Part shown: positions 1 through 30,797 of the stretch, in pieces
Numbering within the stretch: position 1 is the first letter of the stretch
Layout: every line of letters begins with the position of its first letter
Virus record (IMG/VR): IMGVR_UViG_3300026158_000083
Location: 9,691-73,690 of that record
DNA from: a virus
Taxonomy: Duplodnaviria > Caudoviricetes
Reading direction: 5' to 3' (one strand)
Length of the DNA stretch: 64,000 nt
The notes under the pieces: generated by a model
Databases searched by the model: none
The model's input: only the letters and a program-made list of their open reading frames with translations
What the model was told of the DNA's origin: nothing
Position numbers and translations under genes: made by a program

Positions 1-303
1 CCACTCGGCACGCCGGTCATCGCCGCGCACATCGGGGTCGTGCAAACTGGCAGCGATCCAAGCGGCTACGGCAACTACGTCAAGGTGATCGGTGCGCGCA
101 TGACAACGCTCTACGCACACCTGTCGCAAGTCACGGTGACGACGGGCCAGCGGGTACAGGCGGGCGAGCAGCTCGGGCTGGTGGGCAGTACGGGCAACTC
201 GACGGGGCCGCATTTGCACTTCGGGCTGCGGATCGCGGGCGTGCGCAATCAGGCGTATGGCAACTGGCTCGATCCGATGTTAGGACGCATAAACGAGGAG
301 TAA
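1..303 (+). CDS. M23 family metallopeptidase domain, 5' truncated (possible cell-wall hydrolase)
   Basis: Frame 1 is open from base 1: PLGTPVIAAHIGVV...GYGNYVKV...TLYAHLS...GSTGNSTGPHLHF, with the M23 HxH motif. Confidence 0.9.
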   Translation, partial: PLGTPVIAAHIGVVQTGSDPSGYGNYVKVIGARMTTLYAHLSQVTVTTGQRVQAGEQLGLVGSTGNSTGPHLHFGLRIAGVRNQAYGNWLDPMLGRINEE

Positions 304-4463: not shown

Positions 4464-7139
4464 ATGACTGCTAAAGACGGCACGCCGCAAGCGGTGTGCT
4501 TCTATCCTCGCTTTGCTTCGCACGAATTAGGTGGCGTAGCTGTACATATCCGCTATCTGGCGCGCCATCTACAAAAACTTGGTTTTACAATTGTTGATAC
4601 ACCAGACGAAAACACGCTTATTCACGCGCACGCACAAGCGCGACCTGAAAACATAACGGTTTACTCAAATCATGGGATTTACCCGATAAAAGACAAAATG
4701 CCAGCGTGGCAGATTGGCACCAATGCCGCGATCTTCGACAATCTAAAACTAGCTACTGAAATTATTGCTGTCAGTAACTGGACGGCTAATCAATGGCAGC
4801 ATTTGGTCGGACGTCAACCGCATATCATTCACAATTCAATTGACATGGATGAGTGGCATAGTGCGCCTGCCGGTCAGTGGCGCGCACGACTAAAAGTGCC
4901 GAACAAAACGCCGCTAATTTTGTGGGGTAAGACTTCGCTTAGCGATGTGCTTGATCCAACACCGCTTATTGAATTGGCGCTTCATCATCCTAATATGCGC
5001 TTTGTCGCGCCATTGACGCCGCGCATGTTAACGACAAGTCTAAAAAACCTTTCACTAATTGGTCAACAGCCGTTTGAAGATATGCGCGCCTTGCTACAAG
5101 ATTGCGATGTCTACTTGGCTACTGTGCAGGAAAATCATAGTATTCAAGTTCTGGAAGCTATGGCGCTGAAAAAGCCAATTTTAGGTTATAATTGGGGCGG
5201 TACTGGTGAAACGTTAAATATTTCAGGCCAAACGCGCGGTGGCATTTTGACAGAGCCGCGCGATCTTATCAAATTGATCGCGTTATTGCCTGAAGTTTAC
5301 GAACAGCGCGTCAAACTCGGTCAAGACGGTCACGAACTTGTTGCTGAATATTTTTCAGCAGCCAAGCAGATGCCTAAACTAGTAGAGGTGTACAAGATGG
5401 CGCTAGAAAAGAAACCAAGACAGTCTCGCGCATCACCTATAGTGCGTTGTTCAATCGTTATTCCGGTTTATAATAAGGGTCCCTACATTGGCGAAACGGT
5501 CAACAGCGCATTGCGTCAGATCAACGCGCCCAAGCACGAAGTCATTGTCGTCGATGACGGTTCCACGGATGATTCGCTACTAAATGCAAGACGTGCGGCT
5601 GAAGGTCGCACCAATATTCGCTTTTACTCACTGCCTAATGGCGGTGTTTCAGCGGCGCGCAATTTCGGCATAAGTCACGCGAAGGGCGAATATATTTGCT
5701 GTCTTGACGCCGATGACTTGATCGATCCTAATTTTCTAAGTCGTCTTTCAGCAGCACTGGATGCCGATCCTGGTCTTGGTATCGCCTATAGCGATTTTGT
5801 AGCTTTTGGCACAAATCAAAGAGGCATGCCATTTGAAGCGCCAATAACCTGTGAAGAATACGATTTTGAAAAACTCAAGCGCGGCAATCTCATGCCGTGC
5901 TGTAATCTGTTTAGGCGCACGGCTTGGGAACGCGCAGGCGGCTATAAGCCAATCAATCCGTCGTGGGAAGATTACGAACTCTGGCTGAACATGGGCAAGC
6001 TTGGCTGGTATGGCCGACGTGTGCCGGGTCATTTGTTCAAGTATCGCAAAGTGCCGAAGACTGGACGCGATTATCAGTCGCAGGGGCTGGAATGGAAACT
6101 GCGCGCGACGGTCAATAGCTATCATCGCGATCTTTATCCGCCGCTAGTAAGCATTATCATACCATGCTACAAACACAGTCATTTTTTGCGCACCGCCATT
6201 GATAGCGTTCTGGCGCAGACTTTCAACGATTACGAAGTGCTGGTTGTAGATGACGGTAATGATGCTGATGAGCTAAACTCAATTCGCGAAATTGTTGAAA
6301 GTTACGCCAATCCAAACGTACGCGTGGTGCGTCACACACAGAATATGGGTCTTGCCGCCGCGCGTAACACTGGCGTAGAGATGGCGCGCGGTCAGTGGAT
6401 CGTACCGCTAGATGCTGACGACAAGCTTGCGCATGAGTTTCTGGAAGAAGTGTTGCGCGCATCTGAGCAGTTGAATCCCAATCGCTTTGTCTATGCAGAC
6501 ACCTATTTGTGGTGGCCGGATGCCGATCCGGAAACTAAGCTGTTAGCCGCCAACGATTACAATTTTGACGAAAGTCTTAGCAAGATAACGTGGTCATGCA
6601 CGATTTTGTTTCATCGTGATGCATGGCAACGCGTTGGTGGCTACAAACCGCAGATGTCGGAACTTGGCGGTTGGGAAGATTGGGAATTCGCGATTTCGTT
6701 GGGCGAAAACGGTATTTGCGGCGTGCATGTTGCTAAGCCGTTATTCTATTATCGCCAACATTCTAATACGCAGATGCGCATGCAGGCCGAAAGCAATAAG
6801 CCAGTCTTGCAAGAGGCGATTCGTCGCTTGCATAGCGAAGTTTATCGCGGGGAGAGAACTCAAATGTGTTGTGGAGCAGGTAAACGCACGCGTCCTGTAG
6901 CGACCGTAGATCAGACCGTACCCGTTGCGCGTACTATGCCGCAAATCGCAGCCGCAACTTCAAACACGAATGATCGTGTTTTGATTCGCTATGTCGGCAC
7001 GCATCTAGGTTCGCAGACCTGGGTCGCGCCAAGCGGCGAACGCTATCGTTTCGGCTTGAATGATCCGCTGCAAAGGGTGCGCTATGAAGATGTTGACTTC
7101 TTTATCAGCCGCGGGCCATTTAGACAGGTAACAGCATGA
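4464..7139 (+). CDS. Multidomain glycosyltransferase: GT4 (GT-B) + GT2 + GT2 + C-terminal MCCG domain
   Basis: GT4: IIAVSNWTA...IIHNSID...VLEAMALKKPI. GT2 #1: SIVIPVYN...VVDDGSTD...SAARNFGI...LDADD. GT2 #2: SIIIPCYK...VVDDG...LAAARNTGV...LDADD. Confidence 0.92.
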   Translation: MTAKDGTPQAVCFYPRFASHELGGVAVHIRYLARHLQKLGFTIVDTPDENTLIHAHAQARPENITVYSNHGIYPIKDKMPAWQIGTNAAIFDNLKLATEIIAVSNWTANQWQHLVGRQPHIIHNSIDMDEWHSAPAGQWRARLKVPNKTPLILWGKTSLSDVLDPTPLIELALHHPNMRFVAPLTPRMLTTSLKNLSLIGQQPFEDMRALLQDCDVYLATVQENHSIQVLEAMALKKPILGYNWGGTGETLNISGQTRGGILTEPRDLIKLIALLPEVYEQRVKLGQDGHELVAEYFSAAKQMPKLVEVYKMALEKKPRQSRASPIVRCSIVIPVYNKGPYIGETVNSALRQINAPKHEVIVVDDGSTDDSLLNARRAAEGRTNIRFYSLPNGGVSAARNFGISHAKGEYICCLDADDLIDPNFLSRLSAALDADPGLGIAYSDFVAFGTNQRGMPFEAPITCEEYDFEKLKRGNLMPCCNLFRRTAWERAGGYKPINPSWEDYELWLNMGKLGWYGRRVPGHLFKYRKVPKTGRDYQSQGLEWKLRATVNSYHRDLYPPLVSIIIPCYKHSHFLRTAIDSVLAQTFNDYEVLVVDDGNDADELNSIREIVESYANPNVRVVRHTQNMGLAAARNTGVEMARGQWIVPLDADDKLAHEFLEEVLRASEQLNPNRFVYADTYLWWPDADPETKLLAANDYNFDESLSKITWSCTILFHRDAWQRVGGYKPQMSELGGWEDWEFAISLGENGICGVHVAKPLFYYRQHSNTQMRMQAESNKPVLQEAIRRLHSEVYRGERTQMCCGAGKRTRPVATVDQTVPVARTMPQIAAATSNTNDRVLIRYVGTHLGSQTWVAPSGERYRFGLNDPLQRVRYEDVDFFISRGPFRQVTA

Positions 7140-7813
7140 AGACGTGGTTTATACCAACTGTCATGGTGCGCAATGAAGAACATCATATTGCGCAAGTGTT
7201 GCGACCGCTTGTTGCAGTTTGTGGTCACGTCATGCTCGGCGATACAGGTTCGACTGACAATACCGTAGCGATTGCCAAGCAAATCGACGGCGTAGAAATT
7301 ATCGAATACGGCCAGCAATCGCAAATCGGTCTTACTGAAACGCGGCATAATTTGGGTCTACGCGTCAAAGAAAAAGGCTGCAAATGGCAGTTGCTGTGCG
7401 ATGGCGATGAACTGTACAATGTAACTACGTTGCAACACATCGCGAATGAAGGTATGCCGAATGACAAGTTGACCGGCTTCACGAAAATGAAGTCCATCGA
7501 TGCCGATACAGATGGCTCGCTTTGGGAAATGAACGACAAGTTTTCGCGTGCCGCGCTTCTGCCAGCCGATACAACCTGGCATGGCATCTATCCATTCGAT
7601 GTACCGGACTGTTATCGTTACGATGCTAAATACTATTATTTTTCACTAGCGCAGGGCTATGAATATCACGCCGTGCATTTGCATCGCTTGACACGCAGCC
7701 CGCAGGACGCCGATGTAGTTTTGCGCATGACAAAACAAAAGCAGTTTGCCATGCGCGACGTAATTGTGCCGCGCACGATTATCTTCGATCTGGATTGGTG
7801 GTGCCGACAATGA
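7136..7813 (+). CDS. GT2 family glycosyltransferase
   Basis: MVRNEEHHI...GDTGSTDNT...LCDGDE (DxD-type motif); ATGA overlap with the upstream gene. Confidence 0.75.
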   Translation: MKTWFIPTVMVRNEEHHIAQVLRPLVAVCGHVMLGDTGSTDNTVAIAKQIDGVEIIEYGQQSQIGLTETRHNLGLRVKEKGCKWQLLCDGDELYNVTTLQHIANEGMPNDKLTGFTKMKSIDADTDGSLWEMNDKFSRAALLPADTTWHGIYPFDVPDCYRYDAKYYYFSLAQGYEYHAVHLHRLTRSPQDADVVLRMTKQKQFAMRDVIVPRTIIFDLDWWCRQ

Positions 7814-9488: not shown

Positions 9489-9831
9489 TATTTTGCTTAT
9501 CGGTTTAGCGGCATGGCGTTTGGCGCATATGCTGGTCAAAGAGGATGGCCCGTTTGAAATGTTCAGCAAGCTGCGTAAGTTAGTTGGTATCGAGCAGATT
9601 GTTGTGCGAGACGGCGATAAAGTTGACGTTGCGCTAACAGCCAAAAACACGCTGGCGGAAGGTTTGCTGTGCGTGTGGTGCGTATCAGTGTGGACGGCTA
9701 CGCTGTTGTATGTCGGTACGCTGATCCCGCCTTTGCACGCGCCGTTTATATGGTTTAGTAGCATTTTGGCGATTAGCGCGCTAGCTATCGTCGTGCAGGA
9801 GTTTGTTACAGCTTTGCGGGGAGAAGAATAA
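9481..9831 (+). CDS. DUF1360-like membrane protein
   Basis: LAAWRLAHMLVKEDGPF...LLCVWCVSVW with three hydrophobic segments. Confidence 0.7.
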   Translation: MLDILLIGLAAWRLAHMLVKEDGPFEMFSKLRKLVGIEQIVVRDGDKVDVALTAKNTLAEGLLCVWCVSVWTATLLYVGTLIPPLHAPFIWFSSILAISALAIVVQEFVTALRGEE

Positions 9832-10403
9832 TGATCGATTCGCCGTGGGATAGACCGAATGTAGCCAATGAAATCGATGCGTATTGGGCCTGTCAGGATG
9901 AAACTGCCGCGCGCAAAGTTGTCGTGGCAGATTTGAAGCCGCATTTGCATGATGGCGATATTATGGATATCGGTTGTGGTAGCGGGCGCATTTATGAGAC
10001 GTTGCGCGACTTTGACATCATCAAAGAGCATCGCTATCGTGGTTATGATAGTTCACGCGAGATGATTGCCATTGCTAAAGGTCGCTACAAGCGCGTCAAG
10101 TTTGAATATGCTGATCTTATGGATATCGATCAACCAGCAGCCAACGTAATTTGTATCAATGTTTTGCAGCATATCGATGATTGGCAGACGACTACCAGCA
10201 AGATGTTGGGACTAGCCGAAAAGATGCTCTATGTCGTCGCGTGGTTTGGCAGCACGGCTAGTCGCAAATACGATAGCGGTACGGGTTTCTGGAATAACTG
10301 GCTGGATCATCAGAAATTCGTAGATTTTTGTCAGCCACACGGTATAGTTATCAGCCGTATGAATCTATGGGGTACGGTGGGTTCTGTAACAGTCTACAAG
10401 TGA
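9831..10403 (+). CDS. Class I SAM-dependent methyltransferase
   Basis: MDIGCGSGR motif I, YRGYDSS motif II, VLQHI. Confidence 0.88.
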   Translation: MIDSPWDRPNVANEIDAYWACQDETAARKVVVADLKPHLHDGDIMDIGCGSGRIYETLRDFDIIKEHRYRGYDSSREMIAIAKGRYKRVKFEYADLMDIDQPAANVICINVLQHIDDWQTTTSKMLGLAEKMLYVVAWFGSTASRKYDSGTGFWNNWLDHQKFVDFCQPHGIVISRMNLWGTVGSVTVYK

Positions 10404-22855: not shown

Positions 22856-25179
22856 TGCCTAAGACCGATCTTGTCAGACGAATTGATCAGCGCAGTCTCA
22901 TAGATGGCGCTGGTTTTGGCGCGGCAAGAGCTTATTTGTCTGGCGCTATCGAACAGCCGTCCGGTTCATTGGCGGGCTGGACGATAGAACTAGGTCATCT
23001 GTATTCTGGCACGGGGCCGACGCGCACCGGACTCATGCCGGGTTCCTGGCCGTTCTACGCTGGCGCGGATATGCCAAACGACGCGCCATTCAGAGTTTCT
23101 GTTACGGGCGCGCTTTTCGCGAGCAACGCAACTATAGCTGGCGAGATTACAGCTTTGTCTGGTATCATCGGTGGTTGGACGATAGCTACTGACCGCTTAT
23201 ACGCTGGCTTGGGCTCTAACCGCGTAGGATTAGCTCCAGGCAGTTTCCCATTCTATGCAGGCGCAGAAGACCCTGCTATCGCGCCGTTCAGAGTAGATAC
23301 ACTAGGCAAGCTAACAGCAGCGGACGCGACGATTACTGGCACTGTCCTGGCTGCTGGTGGCACAATCATCTTGGGCGATAACGGCTTCTGGCTTGGCGAT
23401 CCTGACTACGGCACTGGCTTGACGCTAAACGAAGTAAAAGATGTATATGGCGTAGGTACCGGCGACTTCGGTTTGCGCATCTACGATAGCGTGGGCGTGC
23501 CGCACATATCGCTAATAAGCCGCGAGGGCAACGTGCCATATTTCAGATTAGGCACGCAGAACGCAGAAACGTGGCTGCAATGGGACGAAAACGGACTGGA
23601 GCTGAAGGGCACGATCACGGCGACGGATGGCCAGATCACGGGCGCGCTGTACGTCGGTGCTGCGGCACCGCGCATCCTGATCGACGGTACGAACAAACTG
23701 ATCGAGAGCACGAACTACGTGGCAGGATTCGCCGGTTTCCGCATGAGTGGAGTGACCGGGTCCGCCGAATTCGAGGACATTACTGCAAGGGGCGCCATCA
23801 AGACGGCGGTTTTTCAGAAGAGCCTTGTCACGGCATTCGCCGGTTCGCAGGTGGTCTCAAAGTCGGCGTCCACGGTCGCAGTCGCGGTCACGCTGTCCGG
23901 CACAACCTTCCCGTTGATCGTCAAAGCGCAGGATGGTGCACCGTTCGCGGACGGCGATCTGATCTACATCAAAACCGAGACGCTGGCAACGTATGCCATC
24001 GTCAACGCCGGAACTGCCAGTGGCGACAACTGGGCCTACACCGCCACCTATCACAGCGGCTCGGATACCGGGACTATTCCTGCCGGATCGACGGTTGTTG
24101 ATTACGGGCCGGGTGGCGCGGGACGGATTTACCAAACGGCAGACGCGGAAAATGCACCTTATCTGTCGATTGCAACGCACGACATGGCCGCACCACCCGT
24201 GTGGACGGAGCGCGTCAGACTCGGCAATCTGTCAGGCATCAGTGGGGCGAGTGGCTACGGACTGTGGACTGACAACGGCTGGTTTACGGGGACGGTGACA
24301 GCTTCGGTGATTCGCTCGGCGGCCACCGGGGCGCGCATCGAGATGAACACCGAGCGCATCTTCGGCATCGATGACGGCGGCAACGTGCAGTGGTATGCCG
24401 AGACTGCCGATGGGAAATTGTATGCGGGCCAGGGATCGGTGGTACTGGATTATGGCGGTCTGCACATCAATTCTTCGAGCCTAAACGGCAACCAGCTGCA
24501 GTTCACCTCCGGCGGCTACGAGACCGGGAAGATCACGGGCTGGCTCGGCCAACGCTACACCGGCGATCCAGGCGTGGGCACGCAGCTGCGCATCGTAACA
24601 GGATTGGCGGGGGCGGCCGAGACCTCAAATATCAGTCTGCTTGCCAATGGTGACGCATCTGGTGACCTGGCCTCATTGACCATCACTTCCGGCGGTCTAG
24701 GCGATGAATCCACGATCATCCTGGGTGCAAATCATGCCCACATTACAGGTGATTTGGAGATCGGGGGCAGCCTCAAGGTTTACAACAATAGTGCGACTTA
24801 TACCGGATACGTCTTTGTGCCACTGACCACGGCGCGTACCAACACATCCTATGATGGCGATGCGGTCAACACTGGCGTCTACCCCATTAACTTGCAGGAT
24901 GCGGCAGGCTACAACTTGCCGGCTGGAATCAAGGCCATTGCGGCGCGTATCTCGGCAGTGTGGTCCGATATCGGTACTGCCCCGGCTGGCAACTATGCTT
25001 ACCTGCGAGCGCGTGGTAGTACTGGCGCAGCGATTATCTGCCGCGCCCAGGCTGCTGGATATTACAACGATGCGTCTGGTGTCGTGGCGTGTGATACCAC
25101 ATATGGCGATGTCGATCTGGTTGTCGGGGGTGCAAACGCATCCGGGATTGTCATCGAAATCTATGGTTACTGGATTTGA
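22855..25179 (+). CDS. Tail fibre / receptor-binding protein
   Basis: Repeated GWTI...LY.G.G...GL.PGS.PFYAGA..APFRV units, Gly-rich shaft, C-terminal tip domain starting near GYVFVPLTT. Confidence 0.6.
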
Positions 25180-25187
25180 GGCGAGCC

Positions 25188-27149
25188 ATGAAAAAAAGAA
25201 TCGCACTGCTCCTGCTCTTGACGCTGATCTGCGCAGCCTGCTATCCACCAGCGCCAGAGCTGCCGCGCAATTTCGCGGGCGACGCGCTGCTGGAGGCGGC
25301 CACTAACTGGTACGTGGATAACGCGGCCAGCGGTACGAACGCAGGCACCTCGTGGACCAATGCCTGGACATCATTCGCCACTGTCAATTGGACTTCGATT
25401 GCAGCCGGCGATACGCTCTACATCTCTGGCGGATCAACCTCTAAAACGTATACCGTCAACACCACATTGGCAATCCCCGGTGGCGAAAGCAGCGTGACGA
25501 TCACTAAAGGCGTTGACGCAGGCCACAATGGCGAGGTGATTCTGGTCCAGGGAACGGCGACTACCGCCATATCGTTGAGCGCCCGCACCTCCGCAATAAC
25601 CGATATAACGATCTCTAATCTGACCTTCCGAAACTTCTCACGCGCCATTTATGGCGACGGTGCGGGAACAGGTGGGATGCACAGCTTACTGATCGACAAC
25701 TGCCGCTTCGAAAACTTTGGCCGAGCCGGGGTATTTCTCGAAGGCAACAACTACGCTTCGTACAACGAAGACATTGTTGTGCGAAATTCGTACTTTGATG
25801 ACAACGATTCCCTCTGCACCCAGAGCGACGGCATCTACATTCAGGTTCTGGACGATTTCACGGCCGATGGCAATTACATCCTGCTGGACAACAACTGCAC
25901 GTCCTCTAGTGACCTGCACTCAGACAACATACAGGCGTTTTGGGTCAATCATGTCGTCTACGCCAACAACGTGGTGATTCAGCGCAGCGATAAAACCTAC
26001 GGCACGCAAGTGTTGTTTGCAGAGAACGCGGTTGACGGTACTGTGGTGATGTATAACAACATCATCATACGTGACACCCCCAACGCCCTGGATTCAGGCA
26101 TCCGTCTCAAAACCGGTACAGGGTCCACTTATACCGGGACGGTTGTCAGCAACTCATACTACGGTTATGCCAGGTCGATCAACGCATCCGTGGCGACGAC
26201 CATCAAGAACAATATTCTTTATGGTCGTGGCACCACGGCCACCAGTTTCTATCTGGCGGGCAGCGGCAGCACGGTCAGCGATAACATCTTCTACGATCCT
26301 GACGGGGTCTTTTATTCGGCATCCGGCGGTATCGATGTCAATCCGCTGTTTGTAGATGATGATCCAGACACCTTTGATTTTCACCTGCAGGCGAGCTCAC
26401 CGGCCATCAATGCCGGGGCTGATTTGGGGTCCAGTTATGCCACCGATATTGAAGGCGCAGCCAGACCGGTTGGCGCGGGATGGGACATTGGCGCCTATGA
26501 GTATGGGTCCGATTCGGCCACCAGCACACCGGTGCCATCTAACACGCCAACCCAAACACCGACCGGAACTATCATCCCGCCAACCAGCACATCAACGAGT
26601 ATAGCAACCAACACGCCCACACCGACGCGCACCGCGACACCACTGCCGACGGCCACCGGCACGCGGACGCCGACCTATACACCCAGGCCGACGAACACGG
26701 CGACGACCGGACCAACAGCTACCCGCACCCCTACGCATACACCGGTGCCGACGCCGGCCGCGGGGCTGTTCTTCAACGAAATCTCTCCGACCAACCTGTA
26801 CGACTGGAATCTGGATGGCTCAGTAACAGCAGCAGACAGGTGGGTTGAGCTGTACAACGCCGGAGCCGCCGCGGTCAACCTTGGCGGCTATACCATCAGC
26901 GATGGCACGTTCACGGGCACGGTGCGTGTCTGGGGCATGACAATCGGCGCAAGCGGCGGCAAGCGGGTCATCCTGGGCGAAGACTTTACGACTTTTCCGG
27001 CCTCGGGAACGCTTACTTTGCGGAATGCACTGGCGACACCGGTCGCCACGGTTGTGTACAACGCCCAATCACCGGGCCTCTGTTACGCCAGGGTGCCAAG
27101 CGGGTCAACTAACTGGAAAGATAACCAGATTTGCACGCCAGGTCAATGA
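25188..27149 (+). CDS. Exported or lipoprotein surface protein: beta-helix + choice-of-anchor-Q-like segment + Thr/Pro linker + lamin-tail-like domain
   Basis: [18 protein letters not shown] signal; [20 protein letters not shown]; [14 protein letters not shown]...WDIGAYEY; TP repeats; FNEISP...WVELYN...NLGGYTISD. Confidence 0.75.
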
Positions 27150-27340: not shown

Positions 27341-28948
27341 ATGAGCGCGATTATTGGGCCGCATATAGCTGGCAGTATTTCAGAGCATCTGAATCTACTC
27401 GCGCGTTGGCAACCTAGATTATCGTGGTGGCTTGACCCGGATAAAGATGGCGCGATTGAATATCATAAGCGCTGTCGCGGTAAACTAGGTGGCCGTATTT
27501 ACGTGCCGGATGATGAGATGACCTGGCGTATTGAAAGCGATCCTCTTGCAGCGGCCAATTTTGCGCACACTAAAATCATCACACATCCGGCGTGCTATCA
27601 GATCGACTACTGGCAAATAGAGAACGAAGTCTGTCAATTCTGGCATCAACTTGGCCGACTCAACGATTACGTATGTGAACGTATGCGACTGGCTAATCAA
27701 GCCGGTTATCACTGTGGTATCATAGCTACATCGGTTGGCAATCTGCATATGCCAGAAGACGACCGCATGGCTTATTATCGTCAGCTATATTCGGCTTTCG
27801 ATATGGCTATCGCGGGTCAGCATGTAGTAGTCAAGCATCTGTATGGTGCGCCTGATTTATACGGACCGTGGGAGCGCGGTGGCGCACCGTGGTTTATCAA
27901 TCGACTGGAAGAACAGTTGCTGCCGCGCTTGCCTGAAAAATATCGCAACTTGCAGTTTGCCATTGCTGAATACGGCATTGACTACTTGTTGATTCAAAGC
28001 ACACCGCAGGGCTGGCGCGGCAAGATGTCCGCCGACGACTATGCGCTTAGTCTGATTCAGATGGGTCAATGGCTAGAGCAGTTTAGTAAACAAGTTGTTG
28101 GTTACTGTGTTTATGAGTTGGGTTGCGTAGATGAGGCTAATTGGGGGACTTACAATATTGCGGGGTCAGTTGCGGAGCGCTTAGCAGATTACTATAGCAG
28201 CAGCAATCAGACGCCGCCGCTGCCACCAGTACCAGCACCGGAGGAAAATATGACTCGCATTATCGATACTAACGGCGCAGAACACGATGAAGCATGGTTG
28301 ACCTCTAAATATGGTGCAATCATCACGCGCGTCAGTTCAAGCGGCAAGCGTTTTACGCTTAGCGAAGTGCAAGTAACAGAAGGTCCGGCCACGCTGATCG
28401 CCATTGTCAAGGATAGTTCTGGCGTACCTCTCAACTCACACGCGGTTGCGCTGTATTGGCCGGACGCGCCTACCGATCTTACGACTCCTGAGACCGCAGT
28501 TTTCAAGACGCGTTTCAAGCCGCGCGCGAATGTACAGTGGACGGATACTAATGGCATGACGGGCTATGGCTTAGGCATGGGTTCGTACATCTATGAAGTT
28601 GCAACGGGTGGACCCCATGCTGTATGGTTGCTACACAATCTCTACGAATCAGACGCCATAGACCGTGTTGGCATGCTGGCAGGCACAAATCACGTCGGGC
28701 CGTTGCGTCTCACGTTTACGCTAACTGAAAAGACACAGGAAATCGGTCAATTGCCAGAAAGTGAGCCAATAGCGCCTGTTGCAATACTGGCCGACAAGGT
28801 GCGCTGGTGGATGGAAGAATCTGTGCGTCAAGACGAAATCGGCAATAACGCGTATGCCAAAGCCATTCGTTACAGCCTCATCAAACGCGATGGCGGTCTG
28901 CTATACAGACTTGAAGCGGCTTTGAAAGGCGGCATGGGGAGTAACTAA
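27341..28948 (+). CDS. Clan GH-A-like TIM-barrel glycoside hydrolase plus a C-terminal beta domain; candidate endolysin
   Basis: WQIENE (acid/base), KHLYG, AIAEYG (nucleophile); Pro-rich linker; sits immediately before a holin-like gene. Confidence 0.55.
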   Translation: MSAIIGPHIAGSISEHLNLLARWQPRLSWWLDPDKDGAIEYHKRCRGKLGGRIYVPDDEMTWRIESDPLAAANFAHTKIITHPACYQIDYWQIENEVCQFWHQLGRLNDYVCERMRLANQAGYHCGIIATSVGNLHMPEDDRMAYYRQLYSAFDMAIAGQHVVVKHLYGAPDLYGPWERGGAPWFINRLEEQLLPRLPEKYRNLQFAIAEYGIDYLLIQSTPQGWRGKMSADDYALSLIQMGQWLEQFSKQVVGYCVYELGCVDEANWGTYNIAGSVAERLADYYSSSNQTPPLPPVPAPEENMTRIIDTNGAEHDEAWLTSKYGAIITRVSSSGKRFTLSEVQVTEGPATLIAIVKDSSGVPLNSHAVALYWPDAPTDLTTPETAVFKTRFKPRANVQWTDTNGMTGYGLGMGSYIYEVATGGPHAVWLLHNLYESDAIDRVGMLAGTNHVGPLRLTFTLTEKTQEIGQLPESEPIAPVAILADKVRWWMEESVRQDEIGNNAYAKAIRYSLIKRDGGLLYRLEAALKGGMGSN

Positions 28949-29329
28949 GTGTTTTGCAGATTGCGGCTGAGCGACGGAATACGTGATCTTGTTGAGCAGT
29001 TGATACGACCAAATTTAGACGTTGATGGTCGCAAACTAACTGCCATCTACTTGATTTTGAATGGTATTTCGCGTATTACTTTGACGCCGATTGTTGCCCT
29101 TGATTTCGTAAATGATCGTTATTACGGCATAGCTGCCGTTATTTTAGGCGTGCTGATTGTTATTACGTCTTTCAAGGGCTACAATCGCACAGCGCTAGGC
29201 CGTATTACGGCCTTACTTGGTGCCAGTCTACTTATAGCATGGGGTTTTGATTTGACGTATCGCGCCAATGCATTTTGGTCGATGCAAATATTGGGTTTTG
29301 TTCTTTTCAGGGAAGCGATTCGCAGATAA
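28949..29329 (+). CDS. Small multi-pass membrane protein, holin-like
   Basis: 126 aa, about four hydrophobic segments, basic C-terminus (EAIRR). Confidence 0.5.
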   Translation: MFCRLRLSDGIRDLVEQLIRPNLDVDGRKLTAIYLILNGISRITLTPIVALDFVNDRYYGIAAVILGVLIVITSFKGYNRTALGRITALLGASLLIAWGFDLTYRANAFWSMQILGFVLFREAIRR

Positions 29330-29331
29330 CT

Positions 29332-30186
29332 ATGGAACAAAACTTATCACTTAATTCGTCGATTGAGATAGGCTTGCTGGTTTGTTTTATCGGCATTGTT
29401 TGGTTGCTGATACTATACGCTTCAGATAGACGACGTGCCGCAAATAGATTCTTTCAGTCTGCGGAGCGCGATATGTCAGCAGCTAAAATCACAGAACTTT
29501 CCAACACAGTAGCTACGCTGCTTGTTGAGCTAACCAGCGCGCGCCAGGAAATTGAAAATCTGAAGCTCCAGTTATCCAGGGCCAACGCGCGCATTACTGA
29601 ACTGGAAATCATGTATGAGTTTCCAGCAACGCAGGGCGGTCACGGTTCGTTGCATCGTCGTTTGTTGCGCCCGCTATTAGTTATTGGCGGAGATGACGCT
29701 AAGATTGCCGGTATGGATCAAGCTGTTTTAGACGGTATTGGCATACGTTACGTGCGGCTCGCCAACGCAACTAAAGACGTTGTCGTCAATGAACTAACAG
29801 CAGTAAGGCGCGAAAACAGGCTATATGATTGGGTGCTGATTTCGGCGCACGCCAATCAGGACGGCGTGCGCCTCTTTAGCGCTAATCAGCCCAACAAAAG
29901 CGAAATCGTTTCACCTGAATTCTGGTCGCGCGCCTTGACTGGCGTAAGCATGGTCGGTCTCGCAGCTTGTAGCGGCTCACAGTTAGCCGAAAAGATTAGT
30001 TGTGCGGTTGAATTCGTCTGGTATTTCAAAGAAGATGTGCCATCTGAACCGGCCAGTCGCTTTGTACAGAAGTTTTTTCAGCGTCTAAATGCTGGTGACA
30101 ACTATAAGACGGCGTTTGTCGCGTGCCTCGACGCCGTACCAGAAGTAGCGTCGTACGCCGATTATCGCTGCAAGTACGGCTGCTAG
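29332..30186 (+). CDS. Membrane-anchored coiled-coil + CHAT (caspase-like) domain protein
   Basis: N-terminal TM (IGLLVCFIGIVWLLILYA), coiled coil, then ATKD...WVLISAH...VGLAAC...ASRFVQKFFQRLNAG. His/Cys dyad is in CHAT spacing. Confidence 0.7.
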   Translation: MEQNLSLNSSIEIGLLVCFIGIVWLLILYASDRRRAANRFFQSAERDMSAAKITELSNTVATLLVELTSARQEIENLKLQLSRANARITELEIMYEFPATQGGHGSLHRRLLRPLLVIGGDDAKIAGMDQAVLDGIGIRYVRLANATKDVVVNELTAVRRENRLYDWVLISAHANQDGVRLFSANQPNKSEIVSPEFWSRALTGVSMVGLAACSGSQLAEKISCAVEFVWYFKEDVPSEPASRFVQKFFQRLNAGDNYKTAFVACLDAVPEVASYADYRCKYGC

Positions 30187-30797
30187 GGCGCTGGCGTTAC
30201 CGAGCGCCAGATGGAGTGCTGCGTAACCTCTATGCAGTTCATCACGCGCTGTGGTCCGGCAGACACGTTGAACGTTTCAATGCGATGCTGTGTCAGAAAT
30301 GTTTCCCACGTCACGATGCCGATAAGATGAACGATTTTGCTTTCTTCGTTTAGGTACATCAGCGCCAGCTTTAGCGGTTCGCACTTGATGCTTTGGGGAA
30401 CTTTTAGCACAGGCGGCCAGTAAACGGTCGTCTTGATATCTGTGCCATCGGCAGCATCGTAACCAGCATCGCCGTAGGTATGCATCGCGCCATCAACCGT
30501 TTTGCCGGTCAGCAGCGCAAAACCTATTTCACCAGCCACGCCCGGTAAATGCGTTGACTTGCCATTGCGCCAATCGTGCGTCGAATCGCGCGACCGCTTA
30601 TCATTCTCGCGGGTTTCGGCAATCAATTCAATGAATGACCAGATCGGCGCGAGATACAGCGCCCAATAATCGCGCGGCGCAGGGTCTGGCATAGTAAGAT
30701 CGCTAGGTAATCTCACGATCTTACTATAACCAGCCGCCGCGTCGGCAATACTATCAGGTTGGATTGGGAGTGTCATCGTATTCAGGCACACCATCAT
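30183..30797 (-). CDS. Hypothetical protein, possible PD-(D/E)XK nuclease
   Basis: GVAGEIGF...DAGYD...DIKT pattern. Confidence 0.45.
   Translation of the reverse strand: MMVCLNTMTLPIQPDSIADAAAGYSKIVRLPSDLTMPDPAPRDYWALYLAPIWSFIELIAETRENDKRSRDSTHDWRNGKSTHLPGVAGEIGFALLTGKTVDGAMHTYGDAGYDAADGTDIKTTVYWPPVLKVPQSIKCEPLKLALMYLNEESKIVHLIGIVTWETFLTQHRIETFNVSAGPQRVMNCIEVTQHSIWRSVTPAP

What the first reader, a model, noticed from the sequence alone, without database searches (positions are those of the whole stretch)
29332..30186. Membrane-anchored caspase-like (CHAT) protease ends the lysis-type cassette
Seen: TM helix, coiled coil, then a domain matching the CHAT pattern along its length, with His (ISAH) and Cys (LAAC) intact. 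It follows a holin-like gene by 2 nt, in the slot where spanins usually lie. Known: CHAT proteases act in bacterial defence and cell death (e.g. Craspase TPR-CHAT). Inference: a phage-encoded protease acting in lysis of an atypical monoderm or S-layer envelope, in lysis timing, or as a decoy against host caspase-based defence.
Basis: partly seen in the sequence, partly recalled or inferred. Interest (0 to 1): 0.75.

Follow-up and report, generated by a model that had tools for sequence, protein, structure and literature searches.

The report
Phage membrane-tethered caspase-like (CHAT) protease
An uncultivated tailed phage encodes a small caspase-type protease, anchored to the host membrane and probably facing the cytoplasm, that is co-translated with a new four-helix membrane protein; the family is large, apparently mostly viral and unstudied, and what it does (timing of lysis or cutting host proteins) is not known.

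Summary
ORF 29332-30186 (284 aa) has an N-terminal membrane helix, a long helix to residue 93, a disordered basic linker and a 175-residue caspase-fold domain. That domain is closest to solved CHAT proteases (SAVED-CHAT 8tl0: Z 19.0, rmsd 2.3 A over 166 residues).

Cys213 is invariant in 143 of 143 diverse relatives and His173 is kept in 136 of 143. The family has 331 representative clusters, and 55 of the 143 reach Pfam CHAT.

The lysis reading is only partly supported:
- Positive-inside statistics (119 of 122 members) put the protease in the cytoplasm, not in a spanin-like periplasmic position.
- The conserved partner is the upstream gene, a new 4-TM protein family. A search starting from the partner always found an overlapping CHAT gene after it.
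- In 7 of 8 other viral contexts the gene lies beside terminase and portal genes. No hydrolase was recognised beside it where I looked.
- In one subfamily the same CHAT domain is fused to a terminase small subunit.

My best guess (0.4) is a late, membrane-tethered protease that works with its 4-TM partner to time membrane permeabilisation. The main rival (0.3) is a host-takeover or counter-defence protease.

This scan has noted the same family before on other phage DNA. I found no published study of it.

The parts
29332..30186 (+). Gene for the 284-aa membrane-tethered CHAT-type protease (stop codon included)
   Evidence: There are 22 close homologues and 331 representative clusters.
29332..29424 (+). 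Short acidic N-tail (MEQNLSLNSSIE) and the single membrane helix (hydrophobic stretch at about residues 10-30), followed by the basic stretch DRRRAANR
   Evidence: Hydropathy 2.59 over residues 10-28, with 0 K+R before the helix and 4 after it. pLDDT is 87-89 for residues 11-30.
29425..29610 (+). Helical stalk, probably a coiled coil (residues 32-93)
   Evidence: Continuous helix 5-93 in the model. Only coiled-coil-type weak Pfam and PDB hits cover it.
29611..29661 (+). Disordered basic linker (residues 94-110, ...GSLHRRLLRP)
   Evidence: pLDDT below 50 for residues 93-108. Close relatives carry KRKLL(R/K)P here.
29662..30183 (+). Minimal CHAT (caspase-fold) domain, residues 111-284
   Evidence: VIA-align model range 111-284: Z 19.0 to 8tl0_A, 14.9 to DdvA, 12.0 to Craspase. 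A profile of this domain alone hits only 8tl0 in the PDB at E 0.0012.
29848..29850 (+). Codon of His173, the putative catalytic histidine
   Evidence: CAC = H. His in 136 of 143 members. It lies near the end of strand 167-175.
29968..29970 (+). Codon of Cys213, the putative catalytic cysteine
   Evidence: TGT = C. Cys in 143 of 143 members. It aligns with the Cys of the LVVLNAC motif of 8tl0.
28949..29329 (+). Cognate partner gene: a 126-aa protein with an amphipathic N-helix and four membrane helices, of a new family
   Evidence: A profile built from the upstream genes of L002, L004 and L008 hits only this ORF among 771 sequences, at E 1.3e-6. The family has 40 proteins and no Pfam domain. 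Model pLDDT is 81, with helices 3-19, 26-44, 56-73, 82-97 and 102-125.
27341..28948 (+). Context only: 535-aa candidate hydrolase with a GH clan-A-like TIM barrel in residues 1-290
   Evidence: No Pfam, PHROG or PDB sequence hit. In the Atlas structure search, residues 1-290 match Asl1-like and GH5-like clusters, and viral clusters in which GH108, M23 or Amidase_2 is the common Pfam family (a lead only).

Best explanation
Molecular identity (about 0.9 likely): the gene encodes a real and probably active CHAT-type cysteine protease.
- A very short N-tail and one membrane helix anchor it N-out/C-in.
- A helical stalk of about 60 residues holds the chains together.
- A disordered basic linker leads to a minimal 175-residue caspase-fold domain. 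That domain carries a His173/Cys213 dyad and faces the cytoplasm at the inner face of the membrane.
- It is co-translated with a cognate 4-TM protein. The two form a mobile two-gene module that travels between unrelated phages and is co-oriented with late (virion and packaging) genes.

Biological role (inferred, about 0.4): late in infection the tethered protease is brought together by its stalk, as caspases are activated by proximity. It then makes a specific cut at the membrane. The substrate could be a cytoplasmic segment of its 4-TM partner or its own basic linker. The cut switches on or times membrane permeabilisation and lysis.

Shown here: fold, conserved dyad, anchor, pairing with the partner, viral distribution.
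Inferred: topology, dimerisation, activity, substrate and any link to lysis.
For: Fold and active site:
- Z 19.0 (rmsd 2.3 A, 166 residues) to SAVED-CHAT 8tl0, whose H375/C422 dyad was shown by mutation to be needed for cleavage.
- Cys is kept in 143 of 143 members and His in 136 of 143. Asp129 (140/143) and Arg159 (130/143) are also conserved.
- 55 of 143 relatives reach Pfam CHAT, best E 1.3e-11.

Topology:
- 122 of 143 members have an N-terminal membrane helix starting at about residue 7.
- K+R is higher after the helix than before it in 119 of those 122 (mean 3.1 against 0.15).
- TerS-fused members have no membrane helix, which fits a cytoplasmic enzyme.

Pairing with the partner:
- The gap is 2 nt here. 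The start and stop overlap in L002, L004, L008, L009, L013 and L015.
- The partner is homologous across these loci.
- A search that started from the partner found 4 viral loci (two nearly identical, one already known), each with a CHAT gene directly after it.

Timing and place:
- Here it is the last gene of the late block, after tail-fibre-like genes and a candidate GH-A-like hydrolase.
- In L008 it lies directly upstream of TerS and TerL. In L009 and L006 a few small genes lie between it and them. Lambdoid phages keep their lysis genes in this position (the lambda order is textbook knowledge).
- Small membrane proteins flank it in L006, L007 and L009.

Precedent: the dimeric, membrane-anchored CHAT of DdvA is proposed to cut its own membrane linker in trans (PMC11506125).
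Against: - No relative shows a recognised endolysin next to the pair.
- In L004, L013/L014 and L015 the pair lies between TerL and the next large gene. That gene is the portal in L004 and was not annotated in the others. This is not a usual lysis position.
- A subfamily replaces the anchor by a terminase small subunit. A protease whose only job is to cut a membrane partner would not fit that.
- L005, L006 and L007 lack the cognate 4-TM partner.
- The partner matches no holin family.
- This phage has a separate M23 peptidase elsewhere, so the local 'cassette' is not its only wall-hydrolase candidate.
- 7 of 143 members lack the His.
- No activity, substrate or expression data exist.
Confidence: 0.4

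Rival explanations
1. Host-takeover or counter-defence protease. The late-expressed CHAT domain cuts host proteins, for example defence sensors or effectors at the membrane or around the packaging machinery. The anchor, or a TerS fusion, only places it near its targets. The 4-TM protein would be a docking or regulatory subunit.
For: - The gene or the gene pair moves between phages with at least three different TerL types and sits at variable places, as accessory genes do.
- In 7 of 8 other viral contexts it lies beside terminase and portal genes.
- In L007 and four cluster representatives it is fused to TerS.
- The characterised prokaryotic CHAT proteases cited here act in phage-host conflict.
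- The nearest Atlas clusters are 91-100% viral among the few members with a taxon record (a lead only).
Against: - No host target or defence system is identified.
- The tight coupling to a dedicated membrane partner and the neighbouring small membrane proteins are not explained.
- Essential lysis genes are also mosaic and mobile, so mobility does not discriminate between the readings.
Confidence: 0.3
2. Exclusion or abortive-infection-type moron. The membrane pair protects the infected cell (or a lysogen) against a second phage, or kills the cell when triggered. It would be comparable to two-gene membrane systems such as lambda RexAB.
For: - It is a two-gene membrane module with sizes of about 126 and 284 aa.
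- It is mobile among phages.
- The CHAT family is linked to regulated cell death. This resemblance is recalled from general knowledge, not tested here.
Against: - It is always co-oriented with virion, packaging or late genes, not with lysogeny genes.
- No sensor domain is present.
- TerS fusions are hard to reconcile with this role.
Confidence: 0.12
3. One reading: a spanin-like or envelope-acting protease whose CHAT domain is outside the membrane and cuts S-layer, sheath or wall-linked proteins during lysis.
For: - The anchor-plus-coiled-coil architecture resembles i-spanins. There is a weak phrog_89 (Rz-like spanin) hit at E 0.046.
- A periplasmic CHAT exists in DdvA.
- The gene follows a candidate hydrolase and a membrane protein.
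Against: - The positive-inside pattern predicts the opposite topology in 119 of 122 members.
- No o-spanin-like gene is embedded or downstream.
- TerS-fused relatives are cytoplasmic.
Confidence: 0.06
4. A catalytically inert scaffold or decoy that only uses the caspase fold for binding.
For: - 7 of 143 members replace the His by D, E, R or V.
- Pfam CHAT is below threshold for this protein.
Against: The Cys is invariant in 143 of 143 members, and the His is among the most conserved of the positions tallied across a family whose members are only 19-47% identical to this protein. That pattern is typical of an active site.
Confidence: 0.05

Closest known systems
SAVED-CHAT of Haliangium ochraceum (type III-B CRISPR/CBASS protease, PDB 8tl0)
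   Same: It is the best structural match (Z 19.0, rmsd 2.3 A, 166 residues; Foldseek E 1.5e-9) and the only significant PDB hit for the domain profile. It has a His/Cys dyad, and the family's Cys aligns with the Cys of its LNAC motif. It is activated by oligomerisation.
   Different: SAVED-CHAT is a soluble host defence enzyme with a cA3-sensing SAVED domain. It forms filaments and cleaves PCaspase. The phage protein has no sensor domain, only a membrane anchor and a stalk, and identity is 17-18%.
DdvA, transmembrane anti-sigma factor with a TPR-CHAT domain (Myxococcus xanthus, PDB 8rot/8rw5)
   Same: It is a membrane-anchored, dimeric CHAT protein (Z 14.9). It is proposed to cut its own linker next to the membrane helix in trans (PMC11506125).
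   Different: DdvA is a host protein of about 990 residues. It has a cytoplasmic anti-sigma domain, TPR repeats and a periplasmic CHAT domain. The phage protein has 284 residues, no TPR, and a predicted cytoplasmic CHAT domain.
Craspase TPR-CHAT/Csx29 and eukaryotic separase
   Same: Same CHAT-type caspase fold (Z 12.0 and about 11). Both are specific single-site proteases.
   Different: They are large TPR-containing soluble proteins, regulated by an RNA-guided complex or by securin. No homologous regulatory parts are present here.
Lambda Rz-type i-spanins
   Same: An N-terminal membrane helix followed by a coiled coil, and a gene that follows a small membrane protein late in the operon.
   Different: The predicted topology is opposite. 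There is no o-spanin partner, the C-terminal domain is an enzyme, and the PHROG match is insignificant (E 0.046).
Bacterial gasdermin plus caspase-like protease pairs
   Same: This is what it may work like: a neighbouring protease that turns on a membrane-permeabilising protein by a single cut.
   Different: The partner is an integral 4-helix membrane protein, not a gasdermin fold. The system is encoded by a phage, and cleavage has not been tested.

Membership tests
CHAT domain / caspase-hemoglobinase fold (MEROPS clan CD; Pfam PF12770) | Alpha/beta caspase fold closest to solved CHAT domains | tested here: met
   Z 19.0 to 8tl0_A, 14.9 to DdvA and 12.0 to Craspase. These stand well above separases and caspases (about 10.8) and unrelated Rossmann-like rows (below 9.3). 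Foldseek E 1.5e-9.
CHAT domain / caspase-hemoglobinase fold (MEROPS clan CD; Pfam PF12770) | His then Cys catalytic dyad at the C-terminal ends of two neighbouring strands, conserved in relatives | tested here: met
   His173 lies in strand 167-175 and Cys213 ends strand 207-213. Cys is kept in 143 of 143 members and His in 136 of 143. The Cys aligns with the LNAC Cys of 8tl0. The residue-level match of the His to H375 was not seen directly, because that alignment starts after it.
CHAT domain / caspase-hemoglobinase fold (MEROPS clan CD; Pfam PF12770) | Sequence match to PF12770 at or above the curated cut-off | tested here: inconclusive
   This protein scores 12.4 bits against a cut-off of 24 (E 0.11). 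However, 55 of 143 family members match at E <= 0.01, best 1.3e-11, so homology is reached transitively.
CHAT domain / caspase-hemoglobinase fold (MEROPS clan CD; Pfam PF12770) | Cysteine-dependent endopeptidase activity | not testable with these tools
   This needs an enzyme assay with H173A and C213A controls.
i-spanin (Rz-like) | N-in/C-out topology with a periplasmic coiled coil | tested here: not met
   K+R after the helix exceeds K+R before it in 119 of 122 members. This protein has 0 before and 4 after. This is a prediction, not an experiment.
i-spanin (Rz-like) | Cognate o-spanin lipoprotein gene embedded, overlapping or just downstream | tested here: not met
   No ATG-started plus-strand ORF of 25 aa or more lies in the other two frames. 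The only alternative-frame plus-strand ORF listed (30123-30353, GTG start) has no lipobox in its printed translation, and the next gene is convergent.
Holin (for the partner gene 28949-29329) | Small membrane protein next to the endolysin that matches a known holin family or is shown to permeabilise the membrane | tested here: inconclusive
   It is small, has four membrane helices, a short charged tail and a candidate hydrolase upstream. It has no significant Pfam or PHROG match, no precomputed Pfam domain in its family and no informative fold match (Z 10.2 or less for a helical bundle; BFVD E 0.077 or more).
Sensor-coupled CHAT defence proteases (SAVED-CHAT, TPR-CHAT/Craspase) | A fused SAVED or TPR sensor or adaptor domain | tested here: not met
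   Residues 1-110 are a membrane helix, a stalk and a linker only.
Gasdermin-protease systems | A partner with the gasdermin fold | tested here: not met
   The partner model is an amphipathic helix plus four membrane helices.

The most novel reading that the evidence does not exclude
Some phages run a proteolytic lysis switch. A membrane-tethered mini-caspase, brought together by its coiled coil late in infection, cuts a cytoplasmic segment of its cognate 4-TM partner (or frees itself by cutting its own basic linker). That cut triggers membrane permeabilisation. It would be a virus-encoded counterpart of caspase/gasdermin cell killing, and TerS-fused versions would couple the same protease to the start of DNA packaging.
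Probability: 0.15. Interest if true: 0.85.

Novelty: new variant of a known kind. Interest (0 to 1): 0.6.

Why it matters
Among prokaryotic systems, the CHAT and caspase-like proteases whose papers I read here are host defence or regulatory enzymes. I found no studied phage member in the paper searches.

This is a large family of minimal (about 175-residue) CHAT domains whose nearest Atlas clusters are mostly viral. The domain is attached either to a membrane anchor with a dedicated 4-TM partner or to the terminase small subunit.

If it is active, phages use specific proteolysis at a defined late step. That step could be lysis timing, host shut-off or defence evasion. The idea is testable with simple wild-type against Cys/His-mutant experiments.

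The family would also offer a very small natural CHAT protease for structural and specificity work. Its likely hosts are Chloroflexota of bioreactors and digesters, which is a lead only, and little is known about how their phages lyse them.

Tried and rejected
- Close-family searches for genomic context found nothing useful. Viral contigs and genome contigs gave no locus. Metagenome contigs gave only one 1.8-kb contig. tblastn against GenBank phages gave no match. P0024 gave only a coiled-coil false lead, L003.
- Broad alignments A2, A3, A4, A6 and A9 were too diverse for the locus scanner. The narrower sets A5 and A11 worked.
The long ENA contigs of the nearest relatives (P0008, 52 kb; P0021, 42 kb; P0015, 20 kb) could therefore not be read. 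Binding between partner and protease was not tested.
- Single-sequence PDB searches of three CHAT domains found nothing relevant. The His could therefore not be aligned residue by residue to H375 of 8tl0.
- The partner-family profile finds no match in the N-terminal multi-TM extensions of long CHAT forms, so there is no Rosetta-stone support for the pairing.
- Partner fold searches gave only generic four-helix bundles (Z 10.2 or less) and no BFVD hit at E <= 0.001.
- Classic wall-hydrolase families were sought in the whole phage record (Amidase_2, Amidase_3, Phage_lysozyme, GH25, NlpC/P60, M23). Only a 154-aa M23 peptidase was found, at the window's left end.
- Four of those families (Amidase_2, M23, GH25, Phage_lysozyme) were sought in five relatives' records, two of them complete. 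None was found. This is too few families to say that these phages lack an endolysin.
- The terminase of this phage was not found by tblastn with relatives' TerL, TerS and portal proteins.
- PDB sequence searches of neighbouring proteins found nothing.
- Sequencing runs: no RNA holder was listed. DNA holders with most of the sampled words are microbial fuel cell metagenomes from one study.
- Paper searches for phage-encoded CHAT or caspase-like proteases with holins or lysis found no description of this family.

Full report
**1. What is there**

The ORF at 29332-30186 (+) begins with ATG and encodes 284 residues. The preceding gene (28949-29329) ends with TAA at 29327-29329, two bases before the ATG. 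The stop of the ORF overlaps the end of a convergent minus-strand gene, so this is the last gene of the long plus-strand late block. The window is part of a 73.7-kb IMG/VR virus record estimated to be 88% complete.

**2. Architecture and fold**

An AlphaFold2 model built on 21 homologues (mean pLDDT 82.4) has these parts:
- one helix over residues 5-93;
- a disordered stretch at residues 93-108;
- an alpha/beta domain over residues 111-284, mostly with pLDDT above 90.

The helix starts with a strongly hydrophobic segment at about residues 10-30.

By sequence, Pfam CHAT is only a sub-threshold hit (E 0.11, 12.4 bits against a cut-off of 24). The rest of the list is coiled-coil noise.

The fold settles the matter:
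- Foldseek's best solved matches are five chains of 8tl0 (SAVED-CHAT, E 1.5e-9 to 4.3e-8). A C11 protease and caspases follow.
- An exhaustive alignment against 48,161 chains ranks SAVED-CHAT first (Z 19.0, rmsd 2.3 A, 166 residues).
- Next come the CHAT of the anti-sigma factor DdvA (Z 14.9) and Craspase TPR-CHAT (Z 12.0). Separases, caspases, legumain and metacaspases score about 10-11.
- A profile of the C-terminal domain alone (10 sequences) has 8tl0 as its only significant PDB hit (E 0.0012). The family's '...llagC' lies on 8tl0's 'LVVLNAC'.
- For SAVED-CHAT, H375 and C422 form the dyad, and the double mutant is inactive (bioRxiv 10.1101/2023.06.23.546230).

I could not confirm the His correspondence residue by residue, because the sequence alignment starts after it. 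It rests on the structural superposition and on its position near the end of the neighbouring strand.

**3. The family and its active site**

- A word-indexed search found 22 relatives. An exhaustive profile search found 331 representative clusters at E <= 1e-3 and 205 at E <= 1e-10. Almost all are 240-300 aa.
- In an alignment of 143 of them (19-47% identical to the query), Cys213 is the only invariant column. His173 is kept in 136 members. Asp129 (140) and Arg159 (130) are also nearly invariant.
- 55 of the 143 match Pfam CHAT at E <= 0.01, best 1.3e-11. The family is therefore a divergent branch of CHAT.
- Seven members have D, E, R or V in place of the His but keep the Cys.
- The nearest Atlas clusters are CHAT-bearing, 248-280 aa, and 91-100% viral among the few members with a taxon record (a lead only).
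- The longest contigs on record for the sampled clusters are 89 kb or less.

**4. Topology**

- 122 of 143 members have an N-terminal membrane helix that starts at about residue 7.
- The 15 residues after it hold on average 3.1 Lys+Arg, against 0.15 before it. The count after the helix is higher in 119 of 122.
- By the positive-inside rule (established knowledge) the tail is outside, and the stalk and protease are in the cytoplasm.
- This is a prediction. It is reinforced by relatives in which the anchor is replaced by a soluble domain (section 6).
- DdvA shows that a CHAT domain can be periplasmic (PMC11506125), so an experiment is still needed.

**5. A cognate partner**

- The upstream 126-aa protein has no significant Pfam or PHROG match.
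- The genes directly upstream of the CHAT gene in L002, L004 and L008 are homologous to each other by BLASTP.
- A profile of those three hits only the window's ORF among 771 sequences (E 1.3e-6).
- A profile search gave 40 proteins of about 100-130 aa. All are unnamed and none has a Pfam domain.
- Arg42, Gly60 and Arg85 are invariant in this family.
- Its model (pLDDT 81) is an amphipathic helix plus four membrane helices. Fold searches gave only generic helical bundles.
- A search that started from the partner found four viral loci. One was already known and two are nearly identical to each other. In every one a CHAT gene follows and overlaps the partner's end.
- The two genes are therefore a conserved, translationally coupled pair.
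- The pairing is not universal. L005, L006 and L007 lack this partner, although small membrane proteins lie beside the gene in L006, L007 and L009.

**6. Genomic context in relatives**

| Locus | Gene order around the CHAT gene |
|---|---|
| L004 | TerL, then partner, CHAT, then portal |
| L008 (complete 54-kb genome with terminal repeats) | partner, CHAT, TerS-like, TerL |
| L009 | a membrane protein, CHAT, a few small genes, TerS, TerL |
| L006/L010 | exonuclease, CHAT, two membrane proteins, ParB-like gene, a phrog_645 gene, TerL, portal |
| L013/L014 and L015 | TerL, a few small genes, partner, CHAT, then a large gene not annotated |
| L005 (complete 107-kb genome) | downstream of head protease and capsid genes |

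The terminases belong to at least three different types, so the module moves between unrelated phages.

The most striking case is L007. Its ORF 6051-7202 is a fusion of a terminase-small-subunit-like domain (phrog_6299, E 7.8e-11) to the same CHAT domain. That domain is 40% identical to a membrane-type member. The fusion lies directly before TerL and portal. Four cluster representatives (P0115, P0131, P0153, P0154) share this architecture.

None of the neighbours scanned matched a wall-hydrolase family.

**7. Context in this phage**

- Upstream of the pair lie a tail-fibre-like protein and a beta-helix/LTD protein with a Pro/Thr-rich linker.
- Next comes a 66-aa protein, then a 535-aa protein with no family match.
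- The Atlas structure search matches residues 1-290 of the 535-aa protein to GH clan-A-like TIM barrels. It also matches viral clusters in which GH108, M23 or Amidase_2 is the common Pfam family (a lead only).
- The local picture (candidate hydrolase, small membrane protein, then this gene, at the end of the late operon) therefore does look like a lysis cassette.
- The only classic wall hydrolase found in the whole record is a 154-aa M23 peptidase at the window's left end (record 9529-9993), close to neck- and tail-type genes.
- Host: the Atlas neighbours of the 535-aa protein are mostly Chloroflexota, and one family member is from a Caldilineaceae MAG. The DNA recurs in microbial fuel cell, bioreactor and digester metagenomes. 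These are leads, not proof.

**8. Interpretation**

Firm:
- It is a real phage gene for a membrane-tethered CHAT-type protein whose Cys/His pair is the best-conserved feature of a large family.
- It is paired with a dedicated 4-TM protein and co-oriented with late genes.

Likely: it faces the cytoplasm, its stalk brings chains together, and it is an active, specific protease.

Open: its substrate and role.

I rank the readings as follows:
- **Late membrane-proximal switch for permeabilisation or lysis, 0.4.** It rests on the coupling to a small membrane protein, the local cassette here, and the lambda-like pre-terminase position in L008, L009 and L006. DdvA offers a model for self-cleavage next to the membrane. 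The conserved basic linker (KRKLL(R/K)P in close relatives) and the near-invariant Asp129 suggest cutting after basic residues, but this is inference only.
- **Host-takeover or counter-defence protease, 0.3.** The TerS fusions, the TerL-to-portal insertions and the lack of neighbouring hydrolases keep this close behind.
- **Spanin-like, envelope-acting reading, 0.06.** This is unlikely for the reasons given in section 4.

**9. Novelty**

- CHAT proteases are known, so this is a new variant of a known kind.
- The new features are the phage origin, the minimal domain, the membrane anchor with a cognate 4-TM partner, and the TerS-fused form.
- Paper searches found no description of the family.
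- Earlier notes of this same scan describe the family in other phage genomes. They agree with the fold, the topology and the pairing found here, but they are not independent evidence.
I could not see the full text of those notes, so I cannot say that they are new to the scan.

Noticed in passing
L007:6051-7202 (IMGVR_UViG_3300048585_000176); also P0115, P0131, P0153, P0154: This is a TerS-CHAT fusion. A terminase-small-subunit-like N-domain (phrog_6299) replaces the membrane anchor and stalk of the phage CHAT protein, directly upstream of TerL and portal. His and Cys are kept.
   Followed up: partly
window 1-303 (record G000 9529-9993, +): A stand-alone 154-aa Peptidase_M23 (E 4e-29) lies close to neck- and tail-type genes. 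It is the only classic wall hydrolase found in this phage, and it could be a virion-associated lysin or the true endolysin.
   Followed up: partly
window 27341-28948 (+); L016 (G003:C1:10077-10577): The 535-aa protein has a GH clan-A-like TIM-barrel N-domain (Atlas structure lead). Its C-terminal domain (residues 304-472) is 38% identical to a 213-aa ORF in the complete 54-kb phage that also carries the partner-CHAT pair, about 7 kb away from that pair.
   Followed up: partly
window 25176-27149 (+): A 657-aa protein has an N-terminal hydrophobic segment, a right-handed beta-helix, a long Pro/Thr-rich linker and a lamin-tail domain. It is probably a depolymerase-like tail or envelope-binding protein.
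   Followed up: no
family members P0027, P0035, P0043, P0104, P0116, P0117, P0147: These seven members have D, E, R or V in place of the catalytic His while keeping the invariant Cys. They may be inactive, or they may use another base.
   Followed up: no
family members P0052, P0139, P0145, P0152, P0155, P0159, P0167: These forms have two or three hydrophobic segments before the stalk. Their N-terminal regions do not match the partner-family profile.
   Followed up: partly
L006:2780-3525: In the locus without the cognate partner, the CHAT gene is followed by a 78-aa single-helix membrane protein and a 170-aa protein with an N-terminal membrane helix. These are possible alternative membrane partners.
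   Followed up: no
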